Assembly (NCBI GenBank): GCA_009914755.4
Contig: CP068257.2
Location: 18,944,001-19,008,000, forward strand
From: the human T2T-CHM13v2.0 reference genome, Homo sapiens
Length of the DNA stretch: 64,000 bases
Direction of reading: 5' to 3'
Of this stretch, positions 4,027-45,882 are shown in pieces; positions within the stretch are counted from its first letter, which is position 1, and every line of letters begins with the position of its first letter. The translations under genes and the position numbers were made by a program. The notes under the pieces are model-generated. The model made no database searches and was not told the origin of the DNA. It was given only the letters and a program-made list of their open reading frames with translations.

Positions 4027-4160
4027 GAAAAGATTTTAAAAATGAAAAACTTGGAGGACATTAACGTCTGATTTCACAACTTATTATAATAGTACAATAA
4101 TTAAGAAAGTGGTATATTGGTGACAGAAAAGGTAAATATGCCAATGGAAGAAGTAGAGCC

Positions 4161-4313
4161 TATATATATATATACCCAGATATATATATATATATATATA
4201 CCCAGATATATATATATATATATACCCAGATATATATATATATACCCAGATATATATATATATATATACCCAGATATATATATATATACCCAGATATATA
4301 TATATATATACCC

Positions 4314-4360
<47 letters not shown>

Positions 4361-4559
4361 CAGATACATACATATACCCAGGAGGGGTGTGTGTGTGTAT
4401 ATATACCTGGGAGGGGGTGTGTATGTGTCTGTGTGTGTGTATATATTTATAAATTTATATGCAGAAGGGTGTATACACACACACACTTGGAATGGTGTAT
4501 GTATCCATATATACACATATATATGTGGGAGTGTGTGTATATATATAGACAAGAGGATG

Positions 4560-4619
<60 letters not shown>

Positions 4620-5130
4620 CCCAGGAGGGTGCATATATAGATATATACAGCGAGGGTGTGTGTATATATACACACACACACACACACACATATATCCAGG
4701 TGTATATAAATATATACATACAAGCGGGAGGGTGTGTGTATATATATATATATGCGGGAGGGTGTATATATATATACATACACACCCAAGAGGGTGTGTG
4801 TATATATATATACCTGGAAGGGTGCATATATATATGTGTATATATATATACCTGGCAGGGGGTATATATACATACCTAGGAGGGGTGTGTGTATATATTT
4901 TTATATACCCGGGAGTGGGTGTATATATATATACATACACACTCAGGAGTGTGTGCATATATATGTATCCGAGAGTAGGTATATATGTGTGTGTGTATAT
5001 ATATATGTGTGTGTGTGTACATATATACACACACACACACACATATACACACCTGGGAGTGGGTATTGGAGGGGGTATATATGTAGATATACACCCTGGA
5101 GTTGGTATATAAATATACACCCAGGAGTGG

Positions 5131-5192
<62 letters not shown>

Positions 5193-5234
5193 CTGAGAGT
5201 GTGTGTGTGTGTGTATATATATATATAAACACCC

Positions 5235-5282
<48 letters not shown>

Positions 5283-5434
5283 GTATATGTATACCTGGGA
5301 GTGGGTATGTATATGTATACCTGGAAGTGGGTATATATAGATATATATATCTATATATGCCTGGGAGTGGGTATATGTGAGTGTATATATATATATGGGG
5401 GCAGGTATAATATATATATAATGGGAGTGGGTTA

Positions 5435-5488
<54 letters not shown>

Positions 5489-5557
5489 TACCCAGGAGGG
5501 GTTATACATATATATACGTGGGGTTGGGATGTATATATACCCGGCAGTGGGTATGTG

Positions 5558-5599
<42 letters not shown>

Positions 5600-5812
5600 C
5601 CGGAGTGGGTATATATATATACACCCGGGAGTGGGTATATATATATACACCCGAGAGTGGGTATATATATATACAGCCGGGAGTGGGTATATATATACCC
5701 AGTAGTGGGTATATATATACCCAGTAGTGGGTATATATATACCTGGGGGAGGGAATATATATATATACCCAAGAGGGGTAGGGGTATATATATATATATA
5801 TGTGTGTGTGTG

Positions 5813-5858
<46 letters not shown>

Positions 5859-6357
5859 AGGGAGTGGGTATATATGCATATATACAACTGGGAGTGGGTA
5901 TATATACATATATATATGCAGACACATACCCAGGAGTGTATATATATATACCTGAGAGTGTGTGTGTATATATAAATATACACACATACACCCGAGAGTG
6001 GGTATGTATATGTATATACCCAGGAGTGGGTATGTATATATACACCCGGGTATGTATATGTATATACCCGGGAGTGGGTATGTATATATACCAGGGAGTG
6101 GGTATATATATACCTGGGTGGGGGTATATATATGTATATACCCATGTGGGGGTGTATATATATATATATAATATATATATATATATACACACACACCCAG
6201 GAGTGGGTATATATATATATACACCCGGGAGCAGTTATACACCACTCCCAGGCTTATATAGATTATACCCACTCTCGGATATGTATATATACACACACCC
6301 ACCCCTCCCGGATACATATATACACCCATCTGGGTATATATATATACCCACTCCCAG

Positions 6358-6396
<39 letters not shown>

Positions 6397-6606
6397 CACT
6401 CCCAGGTGTATATATGTGTATACCAACTGCCAGGTATATGTGTATATACCCCAACCCGCGTATATATATACGAACTCCCAGGTATATAAGTATATATTTA
6501 GCTGCTCCTGGGAGCAGCTAAATACACACACACCTGGGTTGGTAGGGTGTATATATATACACACACACACCCAGGAGGGGAGGATTATATATATATATAT
6601 GTGGTG

Positions 6607-6643
<37 letters not shown>

Positions 6644-6653
6644 GTGGTGTGTG

Positions 6654-6708
<55 letters not shown>

Positions 6709-6766
6709 ACCTGGGAGGGGGTAGTGTGTGTGTATATATATACACACTATATATATATACACACAG

Positions 6767-6797
<31 letters not shown>

Positions 6798-6902
6798 CTG
6801 GGAGGGGGTATATATATGAGCAGGTGTGTGTGTGTGTGTGTGTGTATGTATATATATATATATATACACACACACACCCAGGAGGGGTTATATGTGTGTG
6901 TT

Positions 6903-6949
<47 letters not shown>

Positions 6950-7086
6950 CCTGGAGGGGGTATATGTGTGTGCATGTGTGTTTGTGTGTGTGTGCGTGTG
7001 TGTGTGTATATACCCGGGAGGGGTATATGTGTGTGTATATATATACCCAGGAGTTGGTATATGTGTATGTATATATACCCTATATA
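4161..7086. repeat. Compound microsatellite/minisatellite: (TA)n, (CA/GT)n and ~20-25-bp units GGGTATATATA(TA)nCCCAGGAGTG (first 220 bp as (TATATATATACCCAGA)n)
   Basis: Directly visible: continuous TA/CA/GT dinucleotide runs separated by recurring cccaggagtgggt / cccgggagggtg blocks over ~2.9 kb. The YIYIY/CVCV ORFs in the six-frame track are translation artefacts of this repeat. Confidence 0.95.
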
Positions 7087-7439
7087 AAAAAAATATTGAT
7101 ATTTTATATCGATATATAGATATGTATCACTGCAATTGGCTACTTTTAGACTCCTGGTGATTGGTGCGTTTTACAGAATATAATATATAAATATATAGAT
7201 ATGGATTTATAAATATATCAATATAAAAAATATATGCCCTGTATGTATTTTTAAAAATCTTGTTTTACAGTTTATTTCGGCTTTGTTGCTTTGCATTTCT
7301 TCAATAAATTTGGAAACAGCTTGTCTAGTAATAGATGTTATATACATATATATAACCAATTTGTTTTTTATAGAGCTATGAAAGCATTTAACATACAAAA
7401 GAGTGTATTTTCAATAAATTGTCTTGAAGCAAGTGACTA

Positions 7440-7720
7440 TCAATAATAAAAAATAAAACTTGAATGTTACCTCATACCACAGCCTTATTATAATTAATAA
7501 ATATAATCAATATAATATAATTATAATTATCATAATATATAGTTTTATAAGATGTAGTATTATAACTAATAATTTAGTATTCCAATTAATAATTAATTAT
7601 AATTATTATAATACTATAATATAATATAGTATTAGAAAACATGATGGTTGCATAGTATAATTAATTATATTAATATAATACTAAAATAGTAATTAATAAA
7701 AATAATTAATCAAATTAATT
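7440..7720. repeat. AT-rich low-complexity tract (ataat/taatta-type)
   Basis: Near-pure A/T with repeated ataattataatt, aattaata motifs. Confidence 0.8.
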
Positions 7721-7839
7721 TGTGTATTAGAGTTGAAGAGATCATTTAACTTTGAAATCTAGAACTCTAAAAATTCCTGGAAAAAATATTTCTGACCTTT
7801 AGATGAGCCAATATGACAATTTTACAAAGAATACAAACA

Positions 7840-8170
7840 CTTCTTAAAATGATCAATTGGACTTCATCTAAATCAAAAATATATTTGAAAAACAACACTG
7901 GAGAAGGAGAGTGAGAGACAGAGAAAGAAAGAGAGAGATTTTAAAAGAAAGTCACTCCTTAAAAGGGAGAGGAAATATTCACAATATACAAATATATGTA
8001 ATGATTGAGTTGAATGAAGAATCTAGAATATAATGAATAATTAACTATGAGGCAAAAAAAAAATGGCTAAAGTCTTGAACAGACATTTCACAAAAAATGT
8101 TATGTAAATTACACTTCATTAGCTATCAGGAAAGTGCAAATTAAAACCATAATATAAAGTACTTTTTTTT
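7840..8170 (+). mobile_element. L1 ORF2 C-terminal fragment (older L1), sense on + strand
   Basis: + strand translates to ...DFI*IKNIFEKQHW... / ...TSLAIRKVQIKTII..., resembling L1 ORF2 ...LDFIKIKNFCS...STSLVIREMQIKTTMRY. Confidence 0.5.
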
Positions 8171-18590: not shown

Positions 18591-18995
18591 ATAGATTTTA
18601 CAACAAATCTATTTCAAATTATGTAGTATTACTTACACGTTAAATGTATTGTGCATGGAAGTCAATGCTTTAAAGATTTTAAAATATTTTAAATATGATT
18701 GTTTTAGTTAAATAGAATTTGACTATGTTAAGTAATTTGTCCAAATGATTGTATATTTTGGATTAAAAATAAGTTTGCAACAAACTTTTATTTCAAAATA
18801 CTAACATCTGTGTTTATCTAAATCAAAAACGTGATAAAGTTCTATTTCAAAAAATAAAATAAAAATTTCAGAATACATAAAGTAGAAATTAAAAGAATTT
18901 CTTAATTTTAACTTTCTGTATACTTGCTATTAGTTTATAATATATAGACTATCTTAAGTTAAACATTGGCATTTGTAATAACAGGTGCTGTACAT

Positions 18996-19061
18996 ATGTG
19001 TGTGTGTGTGTGTGTGTGTACATATGTCTCTGTGTCTCTGTGTATATGTATGTGTGTGTGT
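18996..19061. repeat. (GT)n / (GTCTCT)-containing microsatellite
   Basis: gtgtgtgtgtgtgtgtgtgtacatatgtctctgtgtctctgtgtatatgtatgtgtgtgtg. Confidence 0.9.
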
Positions 19062-19077: not shown

Positions 19078-19200
19078 ATCAAGAAGCTGAGGTGGGAGAG
19101 TAGCTTGAGCCCAGGAGTTTGAGGCTACAGTTACATGCTCACACTCCTGCACTCCAGCCTGGGCAACAGAGTGAGACCAAGTCTCAAAAAAATAAAAATA
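19078..19200 (+). mobile_element. Alu right-monomer fragment (FRAM-like)
   Basis: aagctgaggtgggagagtagcttgagcccaggagtttgaggctacagt...cactcctgcactccagcctgggcaacagagtgagaccaagtctcaaaaaaataaaaa. Confidence 0.7.
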
Positions 19201-28650: not shown

Positions 28651-30119
28651 TAAAAGAATGAGATCCAGCCATTTTCAACAACATGGATGGAACTGGGCAT
28701 CATTATGTTAAGGTCATCCAAACTGGAAATTAAGAAGTCAAATTATCCTTGTTTGCTGATGATATGATCTTATATTTGGAAAAATCTAAAGACTTCCCAG
28801 GAAAACTGTTAGAACTGATCAACTGATTACAGATTTATTTCACAAACGTAATGATCTCCAGTTCCATCCATGTTGTTACAAATGACTGGATCTTACATGA
28901 TAAACATCACATGTTCTCACTTATTTGTGGGATTTAAAAATCAAAACAATTGAACTCATGGACACCAAGTAGAAGGATGGTTACCAGTGGCTGGGAAAGG
29001 TAATGGAGGGTTGGGGGGAGGTGGGCATGATTAATGAGTACAAAATCAGTTACAAAGAATGAATAAGACCTACTTTTAATAGCACAAGAGGGTGACTATA
29101 CTCAATAATCACTTAACTGTACATTTTAAAATAACTTGAATAGTGTAACTAGATTGTTTCTAACTCAAAGGATAAATCCTGGAAGGGATGGAAACCCCAC
29201 TTTCCATGATGTGTTTATGTCACATTGTATGCTTGTATCAAAACAACTCATGTACCCCATAAATATATACACCTACTATGTACTCAAAAACATTAAAATA
29301 AAAACTAATAAAAAAAGCTTCAAAAAACAGGCTGACTTTCTTGGTAGGGGCAAATGCAGCTGATGGCTTTAAATTGAAGCCTATGCTCATTTACCATTCT
29401 GAAGTATTTAGGGCCCTTGAGAATTATGCCAAATCTACGCTGCCTATCCTGTAGAAATGGAACAACAAAGCCTGAATGACAGCACGTCTGTTTATAGCCT
29501 GGTTTCCTGAGTATGTTGAGTCCACAGCTGAGACTTAAGCAGCTGAGACTGCTTAGAAAAAAAAAATTATTTCATAATATTACCTCTCATTGACCATGTA
29601 TCAGGTCACCCAAGAGCTCTGATGGAGACGTACAAGGGGATTAATGATGTTTTCATGCCTATTAACACAACATCCATTCTGCAGCCCATGGATCAAAAAG
29701 ACATTTTATATTCGATTATTCTTGTTTAAGAAATACATTTTGTAAGATTATAGCTGCCACAGATACTGATTCCTCTGATGGATCTGGGAAAAGTAAATTG
29801 AAAACCTCCTGGACAGAATTTATCATTGTAGATGCCTTTAATTGTAATTATGTAATTACAATTGTAATTACATTTGTAATTCATGGGAGGAAGTCAAAAT
29901 ATCTACATTAACAGGCATTTGGAAGAAGTTGACTCCAGCCTTCGCTGATGACTTTGAGGGATCAGGACTTCAAGGGAAGACAAAACTACATATGTGGCAG
30001 AAATAGCAAGTTAGTTAGAATCAGAGGTGAAGCCTAAAGATGTGACTGAATTGCTTAAATCTAATGATAACCTTGAATGAATGAGAAGTTCTTTTTATAG
30101 ATGATCAAAGAAAGTTGCT

Positions 30120-31559: not shown

Positions 31560-31660
31560 ATTATAAGGGGAGTAGATACACACACATACATATGTATATA
31601 TACACATATATATTTACACATACATATATGCATGTATATATATAAACAAATTAAGGTATA
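31560..31660. repeat. (CA)/(TA) low-complexity tract
   Basis: acacacacatacatatgtatatatacacatatatatttacacatacatatatgcatgtatatatata. Confidence 0.8.
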
Positions 31661-39600: not shown

Positions 39601-39962
39601 CTTGAAAAGGCTTCAGTAGACTATTATATGCTCCGTGTTGGAGAAAAGAAAACAAAATAACAGTACAGATTATTTACTGTGATTTATGCCACCAGGGTGA
39701 CATCATAAGCCTGGTAAAAACTTAGCCATTTCACCTTCATCTCTTTTTAATTTTTATTTTCATATTTTTGTGAGAAATGATTATGTACAGAAAAGAAGAA
39801 TAGCACTAAGAAAACAGCAGAAGGATATTCCAAAACTCTATTTAAAGCAAAGATAACAAAAATAGGTCAACATACACATGCTACCACTTACAGCTTACAA
39901 GTTAGCATAAAATTTCAAGGACTGTCAATCAATTCTGGATGTAAACTATTGCCCTATGGTGG

Positions 39963-40071
39963 CAGTAAGAAATATAACTCCTGAATTTTATTTCTGTGAA
40001 GATGGAGATGGATGCAGTAAGAAATATAACTGCTGAATTTTATTTCTGTGAAGATGGAGATGGATGCTTTA
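39963..40071 (+). repeat. Tandem duplication, 2 x ~55 bp
   Basis: gcagtaagaaatataact(c/g)ctgaattttatttctgtgaagatggagatggatg occurs twice back to back. Confidence 0.9.
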
Positions 40072-45604: not shown

Positions 45605-45660
45605 ATCGCTTCTCGGCCTTTTGGCTAAGACCGAACGTAGTATCTGTTCTTATCCGTGAA
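45605..45660 (+). pseudogene. U2 snRNA pseudogene fragment (first ~50-55 nt of U2)
   Basis: atcgcttctcggccttttggctaagaccgaacgtagtatctgttcttatc versus U2 ATCGCTTCTCGGCCTTTTGGCTAAGATCAAGTGTAGTATCTGTTCTTATC. Similarity is lost downstream. Confidence 0.75.
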
Positions 45661-45882
45661 TCCAGTAGCATTCACTGAGACATTTGGCTCAGATCTGACA
45701 TCTTATGGTCAATCTTCTATTTGCTACAGCAATTTTCCTACTCAAACTATGAGGTCTCTTCAAATCCCACTCTTTGCCTATGTCTCCCTAACTTAGGGAT
45801 CTTTTGATTTCAGGTAACAGAATAATTATTAAAAAGAGAGTTAAAGAAGAGAGGTTTACTTTTACGTTTAATAATAAGTTCA

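What the first reader, a model, noticed from the sequence alone, without database searches (positions are those of the whole stretch)
4161..7086. 2.9-kb hairpin-forming compound minisatellite with an internally inverted block bounded by a perfect 26-bp palindrome
Seen in sequence: nearly 3 kb of (TA)n and (CA/GT)n runs punctuated by a recurring unit GGG(TA)nCCCAGGAGTG. Each unit contains the self-complementary core GGGTATATATACCC. From about 6238 to 6508 the same unit appears in the opposite orientation (cccactcccaggtgtatatat...). The switch back to direct orientation is marked by an exact palindrome tttagctgctcc-tg-ggagcagctaaa (6496-6521). The other junction at about 6226-6249 is quasi-palindromic (cccgggagcag ttatacac cactcccagg). 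Inference: the tract should have strong potential for non-B DNA (Z-DNA from alternating purine-pyrimidine runs, cruciform/hairpin from TA runs and unit palindromes) and therefore for replication slippage, length polymorphism and breakage. It is comparable in character to the AT-rich minisatellites at rare fragile sites and the AT-dinucleotide flexibility peaks of common fragile sites. The internal inversion looks like a palindrome-mediated rearrangement product.
Basis: partly seen in the sequence, partly recalled or inferred. Interest (0 to 1): 0.55.

Follow-up and report, generated by a model that had tools for sequence, protein, structure and literature searches.

The report
Hairpin-prone compound TA/CA repeat, partly inverted
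This is a real but ordinary 2.9-kb non-coding compound simple repeat in primate DNA: it folds on itself easily and contains a roughly 250-bp stretch of units in the opposite orientation, but nothing shows it is more than a large, probably unstable, simple repeat.

Summary
The tract (4161-7086) is real. It is 65% A+T, and 72% of it is alternating purine-pyrimidine runs, typically G(TG)n(TA)n(CA)nC, separated by a ~10-nt G-rich spacer (CyrGGAGkGG). The commonest spacings are 22-28 nt. A block at about 6243-6489 carries all its spacers reverse-complemented, so the inversion is real.

The "perfect 26-bp palindrome" is not perfect and is off by one. It lies at 6497-6522, with 12-nt arms (14 if extended) around a non-complementary TG. 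The literal unit GGG(TA)nCCCAGGAGTG never occurs exactly.

The tract is by far the most fold-prone DNA in the window. That is a property of the whole array: un-inverting the block in silico removes only 7-13% of the folding energy. The longest pure runs, (TA)23 and (TA)21, sit at the published 20-22-repeat cruciform threshold.

It is not a FRA16B-type minisatellite and not a PATRR. It resembles the interrupted AT compound microsatellites (Flex1/Flex5) of common fragile sites.

Length polymorphism, fragility, chromosomal position and the age of the inversion could not be tested, because no other copy of the locus exists in the searchable collections.

Verdict: an ordinary member of a known class; low interest.

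The parts
4161..7086 (.). Whole compound micro/minisatellite tract (2926 nt, 65.4% A+T)
   Evidence: TRF arrays throughout. 72% is alternating purine-pyrimidine runs. Composition. It is the most fold-prone DNA in the window.
4161..4376 (+). Left-edge sub-array with the simplest unit, (TA)7-21 + CCCAG; period about 24, 9.3 copies
   Evidence: TRF score 302, 86% matches. Spacer is 'CCAG' only. Contains (TA)21 at 4317-4358.
4377..4910 (+). Degenerate domain with GGAGGGG-type spacers and long CA/TG/TA cores, including (CA)20 at 4564-4603
   Evidence: Spacer listing; pure runs.
4911..6223 (+). Central domain with GGAGTGG-type spacers; includes the most regular sub-arrays (5584-5763, period 22/26, about 7 copies; 6000-6133, period 24/48)
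   Evidence: TRF. 19 forward GGAGTGGGTATA-like hits at 4912-6211. The 48-nt two-unit block at 6000-6091 is duplicated at 97% identity, which indicates recent unit turnover.
5131..5186 (.). Perfect 56-nt palindrome, GTGTG(TA)23CACAC; holds the longest pure (TA) run, 5136-5181
   Evidence: The 71-nt stretch containing it (5126-5196) folds at -19.7 kcal/mol, z -3.9.
5433..5490 (.). Perfect 58-nt palindrome, TA(TG)7(TA)13(CA)7TA; the longest perfect palindrome in the window
6224..6252 (.). Left junction, forward to inverted: CCCGGGAGCAGTTATACACCACTCCCAGG; weak quasi-palindrome formed by head-to-head spacers
   Evidence: Coordinates. Folds at -5.4 kcal/mol, z -2.6. Carries one of only three GGAGCAG copies found at the two junctions.
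6243..6489 (-). Inverted block of about 8 units with reverse-complemented GGAGTGG-type spacers (CCACTCCCAG and variants); includes (TA)17 at 6361-6394
   Evidence: G3:C3 runs are 2:13 inside against 60:30 upstream. The longest exact inverted match to the rest of the tract that includes a spacer is 22 nt.
6495..6524 (.). Right junction, inverted to forward: 14-nt arms TATTTAGCTGCTCC / GGAGCAGCTAAATA around a 2-nt non-complementary centre TG
   Evidence: Folds at -12.4 kcal/mol, z -5.7, 0 of 200 shuffles as good. The only such inverted repeat in the window not built from repeat units; shuffles gave 0.
6525..7086 (+). Right domain with GGAGGGG-type spacers and long (TG)n(TA)n(CA)n cores
   Evidence: Contains the most stable 150-nt window (start 6751, -46.2 kcal/mol).

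Best explanation
The tract is a non-coding, hierarchical tandem repeat in AT-rich, Alu-bearing primate DNA.

The basic unit is a short G-rich spacer (CyrGGAGkGG) plus a self-complementary alternating purine-pyrimidine core, G(TG)n(TA)n(CA)nC; the commonest spacings are 22-28 nt. The array grew by duplication of units and of blocks of units. The cores then expanded secondarily as TA, CA and TG microsatellites by replication slippage.

About eight units at the right edge of the central GGAGTGG-type domain lie in reverse orientation. The most likely cause is one old strand-switch or inversion event whose breakpoints fell in the spacer, which is itself quasi-palindromic (CTCC-TG-GGAG). This left a GGAGCAG-type head in three copies, forward, reverse and forward, at the two junctions. 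Where a reverse head abuts a forward head, they form the 14+2+14 hairpin.

Because the cores are self-complementary, single strands of the whole tract fold readily in either orientation. It is therefore expected to slow replication, slip and vary in length, as other long interrupted AT-rich repeats do. No cellular function is implied.

Shown here: the anatomy, the orientation, the fold-proneness and the modest contribution of the inversion. Inferred: the growth mechanism, the template-switch or inversion origin, and any instability in vivo.
For: Context: about 11 Alu copies and no CpG-island-like window outside an Alu; GC is about 0.3-0.4 across most of the window.

Tandem, degenerate units with sub-arrays at 86-97% identity, including a 48-nt two-unit block duplicated at 97%. 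Motif enrichment of 25 against 0.30 expected. Spacer subtypes are arranged in domains, with the simplest units at the left edge.

The orientation flip is confirmed three independent ways. GGAGCAG occurs in the tract only at 6228 (+), 6502 (-) and 6511 (+).

The block shares no exact inverted match longer than 22 nt with the rest of the tract that includes a spacer, so it is old or diverged rather than a fresh copy.

Folding: tract -28.7 against -11.4 kcal/mol per 150 nt elsewhere. The 5960-6800 piece has z -14.9. All-forward 841-nt stretches fold at -172 to -205, and the un-inverted control at -187 to -199, against -213.7 for the real sequence.

Not coding: the long six-frame ORFs encode only YIYI, CVCV and THTH low-complexity strings. 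They exist because stop trinucleotides are 8-fold depleted by composition, 7.5 against 61.3 per kb.
Against: No second copy of the locus (another haplotype or an ape orthologue) could be obtained, so slippage, polymorphism and the age and mechanism of the inversion are untested.

An in-place inversion and an inverted duplication cannot be told apart. Three copies of the GGAGCAG head could also reflect a small unit subfamily that existed before any rearrangement.

Folding was computed for naked single strands. It says nothing direct about duplex DNA in chromatin.
Confidence: 0.8

Rival explanations
1. One reading: the tract is a true instability hotspot. It would be hypervariable in length and prone to breakage, like the AT-rich sequences at rare and common fragile sites, and the inverted block would be a product of palindrome-mediated rearrangement at this site.
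For: Extreme fold-proneness. (TA)23 and (TA)21 are at the 20-22-repeat cruciform threshold, and the tract has perfect 56-58-nt palindromes. Flex1 fragility depends on AT-repeat length, and FRA16C carries AT-rich repeats of more than 400 bp, one of about 2250 bp (PMC10754330). Near-identical recent unit duplications suggest ongoing turnover.
Against: The pure TA runs only just reach the threshold, and most TA tracts are interrupted every 12-40 nt by GC-containing spacers. A+T is 65%, much lower than in FRA16B units. The inversion adds only 7-13% to folding energy. There are no population, cytogenetic or break-mapping data, and the locus could not be placed on a chromosome.
Confidence: 0.25
2. 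The inverted block is a fairly recent inverted duplication of the forward segment at about 5398-5660, made by fold-back or template switching.
For: Rare markers occur in the same order in both segments: ACG[C/T]G, GGTTGG, GGCAGT, a perfect (TA)17 and GAGAGTGG. GGCAGT and ACGYG are unique per orientation. The heads GGGGCAGGTATAATATATA and GGAGCAGCTAAATATATA align. Forward windows at 5361-5581 give the top alignment scores for the reversed block.
Against: The top scores are only about 1.6 sd above the mean of all forward windows. The 59-nt marker segment scores equally well at 5506, 5579 and 6077. Rare k-mers of the block scatter over at least seven forward locations. MAFFT chooses a different register. 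Overall identity is about 80%, the same as between any two units.
Confidence: 0.1
3. The inverted block is an assembly or library artefact, such as a fold-back chimera or mis-joined reads inside a hard-to-assemble repeat.
For: Long TA/CA repeats are difficult to assemble. A head-to-head junction with a tiny spacer is the signature of fold-back chimeras.
Against: Fold-back artefacts give long, exact arms. Here exact complementarity stops after 14 nt, and no exact inverted match that includes a spacer exceeds 22 nt. The block has its own private variants, such as CGCG at 6457-6460 and CCAGATGG (reverse complement; rc CAGATGG at 6326), and its own internal duplication.
Confidence: 0.05
4. The tract encodes something: a protein from one of the long ORFs, or a structured RNA.
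For: Mechanical ORFs of up to 438 aa in all six frames.
Against: The translations are pure dipeptide-repeat low complexity. The ORFs arise because TA/CA/TG/GGG/CCC sequence lacks stop trinucleotides. Rfam found nothing in the tract. Five tract ORFs have no exact product on record.
Confidence: 0.01

Closest known systems
AT-dinucleotide-rich 'flexibility peaks' of common fragile sites (Flex1 and especially Flex5 of FRA16D; the long AT-rich repeats of FRA16C)
   Same: Long tracts dominated by (AT/TA)n that form hairpins in single strands and cruciforms when perfect runs exceed about 20-22 repeats. Flex5 is described as a compound microsatellite with an interrupted (AT)n. FRA16C holds AT-rich repeats of more than 400 bp, one of about 2250 bp (PMC11797062; PMC10754330). 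Here the tract is 2.9 kb, with (TA)23 and (TA)21 as the longest pure runs and many interrupted runs.
   Different: This tract has a regular G-rich spacer that gives it minisatellite periodicity. It also has substantial CA/TG content, only 65% A+T, and an internal inverted block. Its chromosomal position, and therefore any link to a mapped fragile site, is unknown.
FRA16B / FRA10B AT-rich minisatellites of rare, non-folate-sensitive fragile sites
   Same: A tandem array of an AT-rich unit a few tens of bp long with predicted secondary structure.
   Different: The FRA16B 33-bp unit ATATATTATATATTATATCTAATAATATATC/ATA (PMC2875025) is absent at up to 3 mismatches. FRA16B units are almost pure A+T, whereas this tract is 65% A+T. 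Fragility there needs expansion to as many as 2000 copies. This tract has roughly 50 spacer-delimited units of variable length.
Palindromic AT-rich repeats (PATRR11, PATRR17, PATRR22) at recurrent translocation breakpoints
   Same: AT-rich DNA with inverted-repeat symmetry and cruciform potential. Forward units at 6023-6118 can pair with the inverted block at 6247-6354 (87 bp in the minimum-energy fold).
   Different: PATRRs are single palindromes of about 190-600 bp (PMC1851657). Here the arms are only 78.9% identical with several gaps, and the largest perfect palindrome is 58 nt. Un-inverting the block hardly changes the folding energy.
Expanded (TA)n repeats that break in WRN-depleted, mismatch-repair-deficient cells
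   Same: (TA)n runs that can extrude cruciforms (PMC9890227).
   Different: [quoted passage not shown] Here the TA runs are short and interrupted in this haplotype. Nothing is known about this locus in such cells.
Quasi-palindrome template-switch mutations and inverted-duplication junctions (established knowledge; not checked in the literature here)
   Same: A perfect short inverted repeat with a 2-nt centre sits exactly where orientation flips. The same head sequence is present forward, reverse and forward at the two junctions.
   Different: The event itself cannot be reconstructed. No ancestral or alternative allele is available, and no source segment could be identified.

Membership tests
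Compound micro/minisatellite (simple tandem repeat) | Head-to-tail repetition of a short unit, detectable by Tandem Repeats Finder | tested here: met
   Periods of 2, 22-28, 43 and 48 nt across 4161-7086; best sub-arrays have 86-97% matches.
Compound micro/minisatellite (simple tandem repeat) | Unit motif enriched far above the compositional expectation | tested here: met
   25 hits against 0.30 expected; 0 of 100 shuffles reach 25.
Compound micro/minisatellite (simple tandem repeat) | Length polymorphism between alleles | not testable with these tools
   No other copy of the locus was found: 7 exact-ORF look-ups and 4 collection scans gave nothing relevant.
FRA16B-type AT-rich minisatellite | 33-bp unit ATATATTATATATTATATCTAATAATATATC/ATA | tested here: not met
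   0 matches at up to 3 mismatches.
FRA16B-type AT-rich minisatellite | Almost pure A+T unit composition | tested here: not met
   The tract is 65.4% A+T, and every unit has a G/C-rich spacer.
FRA16B-type AT-rich minisatellite | Expansion to hundreds or thousands of copies with cytogenetic fragility | not testable with these tools
   This needs population and cytogenetic data.
PATRR (palindromic AT-rich repeat) | One palindrome of about 190-600 bp with nearly identical arms | tested here: not met
   The best long arms are 76-85% complementary; a gapped alignment gives 78.9%. The largest perfect palindrome is 58 nt.
PATRR (palindromic AT-rich repeat) | Site of recurrent translocation breakpoints | not testable with these tools
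   The locus could not be placed on a chromosome.
Common-fragile-site AT-dinucleotide flexibility peak (Flex1/Flex5-like) | Perfect (AT/TA)n above about 20-22 repeats (cruciform-competent) and/or a long interrupted (AT)n hairpin former | tested here: met
   (TA)23 at 5136-5181 and (TA)21 at 4317-4358, only marginally above the threshold, plus many interrupted runs. Threshold from PMC11797062.
Common-fragile-site AT-dinucleotide flexibility peak (Flex1/Flex5-like) | Lies within a mapped common fragile site and stalls replication | not testable with these tools
   No human genome coordinates or replication data are available. The window has no identifiable exon or CpG island to anchor it.
Z-DNA-prone (CA/TG)n tract | Uninterrupted CA/TG runs of a dozen or more repeats | tested here: met
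   (CA)20, (TG)16, (CA)15, (CA)14 and (CA)13. Actual Z-DNA formation was not computed, because no Z-Hunt tool is available.
G-quadruplex motif | Four G3+ runs with loops of at most 7 (or at most 12) nt | tested here: not met
   0 in the tract on either strand. Only long-loop (up to 25 nt) candidates exist: 10 on the + strand and 4 on the - strand.

The most novel reading that the evidence does not exclude
The tract is an unrecognised structure-driven instability hotspot. It would be hypervariable among human haplotypes. Its inverted block would be polymorphic or lineage-specific and generated by hairpin-primed template switching within the array. Alleles with expanded TA runs would act as replication barriers or break sites, for example as WRN-dependent breaks in mismatch-repair-deficient cells or as a component of a common fragile site.
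Probability: 0.1. Interest if true: 0.45.

Novelty: new member of a known kind. Interest (0 to 1): 0.17.

Why it matters
As it stands, it matters little. Long compound TA/CA repeats with degenerate minisatellite periodicity are a familiar component of AT-rich primate DNA, and routine simple-repeat annotation would presumably mask this one.

It has some practical relevance. (1) The tract is almost free of stop codons in all six frames, so it generates spurious ORFs of up to 438 aa. (2) It is the kind of sequence that short reads cannot assemble and where long-read assemblies may disagree. (3) If alleles with longer pure TA runs exist, the site would be a reasonable candidate for replication stalling or breakage.

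The internal inverted block with a clean 14+2+14 junction is a tidy natural example of a strand-switch scar inside a hairpin-prone array. It could be dated and interpreted mechanistically once ape and pangenome alignments are made.

Tried and rejected
1. Fetching other copies of the locus. Seven exact-product look-ups were run, five with mechanical ORFs from the tract and two with flank ORFs. All were empty. A metagenome scan for the junction 20-mer returned 7 hits, all unrelated microbial contigs with no TA-rich context. Genome-contig scans for the left flank and for the unit, and a viral-contig scan for the unit, returned 0.

2. 'The inverted block is an inverted copy of 5398-5660.' This was suggested by shared rare markers. 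It was not upheld by sliding alignment, by the marker-segment search (a three-way tie), by the rare k-mer distribution or by MAFFT. I kept it only as a low-confidence rival.

3. 'The inversion creates a PATRR-like large palindrome.' The minimum-energy fold does pair forward units with the block. However, the un-inverted control and all-forward stretches fold almost as well.

4. 'Hairpin-templated maintenance of symmetric (TG)n(TA)m(CA)n cores.' TG and CA counts are equal in only 2 of 20 clean cores (permutation P = 0.995, correlation -0.26). Rejected.

5. G-quadruplex potential of the paired G3 runs. There is no canonical motif.

6. Placing the window on a chromosome. Rfam gave only a U2-like pseudogene. 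There is no CpG island, and the long ORFs outside the tract gave no obvious coding clue. Screening about 30,000 residues of stop-free segments against PDB or Pfam would have used nearly all capped searches for a side question, so I abandoned it.

7. Literature search for the unit sequence in six forms: 0 papers.
Full report
OBSERVATION

Tandem Repeats Finder reports a continuous series of TA, AC and GT arrays and arrays of period 22-28, 43 and 48 nt from 4161 to about 7077. At a score of 150 or more, the only other array in the 64 kb is an unrelated 52-bp duplication.

I segmented 4140-7100 into alternating purine-pyrimidine runs and the sequence between them. This gave 96 runs of at least 8 nt covering 2126 of 2961 nt. 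The tract is 2926 nt and 65.4% A+T, with 38% in (TA)>=3 runs and about 10% each in (CA)>=3 and (TG)>=3 runs. The surroundings are AT-rich, Alu-bearing primate DNA with no CpG island.

ANATOMY

The typical unit is a self-complementary core, G(TG)n(TA)n(CA)nC, followed by a roughly 10-nt G-rich spacer, CyrGGAGkGG. The motif GGAGTGGGTATA with up to 1 mismatch occurs 25 times against 0.30 expected, and every hit is inside the tract.

GGG(TA)nCCCAGGAGTG never occurs exactly, and GGG(TA)nCCC occurs exactly only three times.

Spacer subtypes form domains:
- A left-edge sub-array with the minimal spacer CCAG (4161-4376, period about 24, 9.3 copies).
- GGAGGGG-type spacers in the outer parts (4381-4879 and 6574-7017).
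- GGAGTGG-type spacers in the centre (4911-6200).

Some blocks are near-identical, for example a 48-nt two-unit block duplicated at 97% at 6000-6091. This indicates turnover by duplication of units and blocks, with secondary microsatellite expansion inside the cores.

The tract is 8-fold depleted in stop trinucleotides (7.5 against 61.3 per kb per strand). That is why it shows mechanical ORFs of up to 438 aa in all six frames. Their translations are YIYI, CVCV and THTH strings and are not evidence of coding.

THE INVERTED BLOCK AND ITS JUNCTIONS

The inversion is confirmed in three independent ways.
- All strand-specific reverse spacers (CCACTCCCAG and variants) lie between 6243 and 6489, and no forward spacer lies there.
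- The three minus-strand hits of the 12-mer are at 6264, 6343 and 6391. The other 22 hits are plus-strand.
- G3:C3 run counts flip from 60:30 upstream to 2:13 in the block and back to 12:6 downstream.

It has 12-nt arms around a non-complementary TG, and the arms extend to 14 nt at 6495-6524. It is still clearly non-random. It is the only inverted repeat with arms of at least 12 nt and a short loop in the window that is not simply built from repeat units; the only other hit, 5684-5723, is two identical self-complementary units in tandem. Twenty shuffles gave none. It folds at -12.4 kcal/mol with z -5.7.

The left junction (6224-6252) is only weakly self-complementary (-5.4 kcal/mol, z -2.6).

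A GGAGCAG-type head occurs in the tract only at 6228 (+), 6502 (-) and 6511 (+), that is, forward, reverse and forward at the two junctions.

ORIGIN OF THE BLOCK

I first thought the block was an inverted copy of forward 5398-5660. Five rare markers occur in the same order in both: ACG[C/T]G, GGTTGG, GGCAGT, a perfect (TA)17 and GAGAGTGG. More objective tests did not uphold this.
- The best forward windows for the reversed block are in that region but only about 1.6 sd above the mean.
- The 59-nt marker segment ties at three positions.
- Rare k-mers of the block recur at seven or more scattered forward places.
- MAFFT picks another register.

The longest exact inverted match that includes a spacer is 22 nt, one consensus unit. 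The block is therefore a diverged, mosaic member of the array. It is not a fresh copy, which also argues against a fold-back assembly artefact, since those have long exact arms.

An old template-switch or inversion event with breakpoints in the quasi-palindromic spacer (CTCC-TG-GGAG) is the best reading. This is inference. In-place inversion and inverted duplication cannot be separated without another allele or an outgroup.

NON-B DNA POTENTIAL

With DNA parameters, 150-nt windows in the tract fold at a mean of -28.7 kcal/mol (sd 7.5) against -11.4 (sd 4.5) elsewhere. The ten most stable of 852 windows are all in the tract. Large (TG)n(TA)n(CA)n cores fold at -18 to -21 kcal/mol (z -3.1 to -3.9), but a short 30-nt unit is no better than its shuffles (z +0.45).

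The 841-nt stretch 5960-6800 folds at -213.7 kcal/mol against -135.5 +/- 5.2 for shuffles. In that fold, 87 base pairs link forward units at 6023-6118 with the inverted block at 6247-6354.

The control decides how to read this. Un-inverting the block in silico still gives -198.5 or -186.6 kcal/mol, and all-forward stretches of the same length give -172 to -205 with similar numbers of long-range pairs. The fold-proneness therefore belongs to the whole array, because its cores are self-complementary. The inversion adds only 7-13%.

Two further ideas failed. There is no sign of hairpin-templated maintenance of symmetric cores, since TG and CA counts are equal in 2 of 20 cores (permutation P = 0.995). 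There is no canonical G-quadruplex motif.

COMPARISON WITH KNOWN CLASSES

The published threshold for cruciform formation by perfect (AT)n in duplex DNA is about 20-22 repeats. Flex1 varies from 11 to 88 copies with length-dependent fragility. Flex5 is a compound microsatellite with an interrupted (AT)n. FRA16C contains AT-rich repeats of more than 400 bp, one of about 2250 bp (PMC11797062; PMC10754330). Here the longest pure runs are (TA)23 and (TA)21, then two of 17, so they sit at the threshold. The tract works like these interrupted AT-rich compound repeats.

It is not a FRA16B-type minisatellite. The 33-bp unit (PMC2875025) is absent at up to 3 mismatches, and A+T is 65%.

It is not a PATRR, which is a palindrome of about 190-600 bp (PMC1851657). 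The best long arms here are 76-85% complementary, or 78.9% in a gapped alignment.

Z-DNA potential applies only to the CA/TG runs, up to (CA)20. That TA runs favour cruciforms rather than Z-DNA is established knowledge and was not computed here.

The unit sequence appears in no searchable paper.

WHAT COULD NOT BE DONE

No other copy of the locus could be retrieved. Seven exact-product look-ups and four collection scans gave nothing relevant; the searchable collections are microbial and viral. The window could not be placed on a chromosome.

VERDICT

Hairpin potential is confirmed, but it does not depend on the inversion. The fragile-site analogy holds as a resemblance to Flex-type sequences, not as membership of the FRA16B or PATRR classes. 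This is an ordinary, if large and tidy, member of the class of compound simple repeats, and interest is low.

Noticed in passing
window 4161-7086, all six frames: Stop trinucleotides are 8-fold depleted (7.5 against 61.3 per kb per strand). The tract therefore yields mechanical ORFs of up to 438 aa in every frame, encoding YIYI, CVCV and THTH strings. This is a trap for ORF-based gene callers.
   Followed up: yes
window 45605-45737 (+): A U2 snRNA-like match just at the Rfam gathering score (46.5 against 46 bits). It covers 133 nt for a 192-nt model, so it is most likely a degenerate U2 pseudogene.
   Followed up: no
window 39962-40067: A 52-bp unit duplicated in tandem at 98% identity. It is the only other high-scoring tandem repeat in the window.
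   Followed up: no
window 29850-29873: A perfect 24-nt palindrome, ATGTAATTACAATTGTAATTACAT. It is the only perfect palindrome of at least 24 nt outside the tract.
   Followed up: no
window 7087-7720: Immediately downstream of the tract lies about 600 nt of very AT-rich low-complexity sequence (GC 0.23 for 7001-8000) with weak 5-28-nt periodicities. It is unrelated in unit to the tract.
   Followed up: no
window 4175-7061 (spacers): The spacer variants CCGGGAGTGG and CCCAGGAGTT resemble the Alu segments CCGGGCGTGG and CCCAGGAGTTCG; the Alu consensus is recalled from memory. The two near-matches to the spacer motif outside the tract are CCCAGGAGTTTG at 19110 and 60596. With about 20 spacer variants, a 10-mer match with 1 mismatch to a 300-bp element is probably coincidence. 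This was not tested statistically.
   Followed up: partly
window 4656-4695, 5433-5491, 5784-5857, 6647-6710: Long cores always have the polarity (TG)n(TA)n(CA)n, four cases against none for (CA)n(TA)n(TG)n. This fits G-rich spacers on the 5' side and C on the 3' side, or descent from one ancestral unit. The cause was not resolved.
   Followed up: partly
window 18989-19027 and 31576-31644: Other, ordinary alternating purine-pyrimidine microsatellites of 30-39 nt elsewhere in the window.
   Followed up: no
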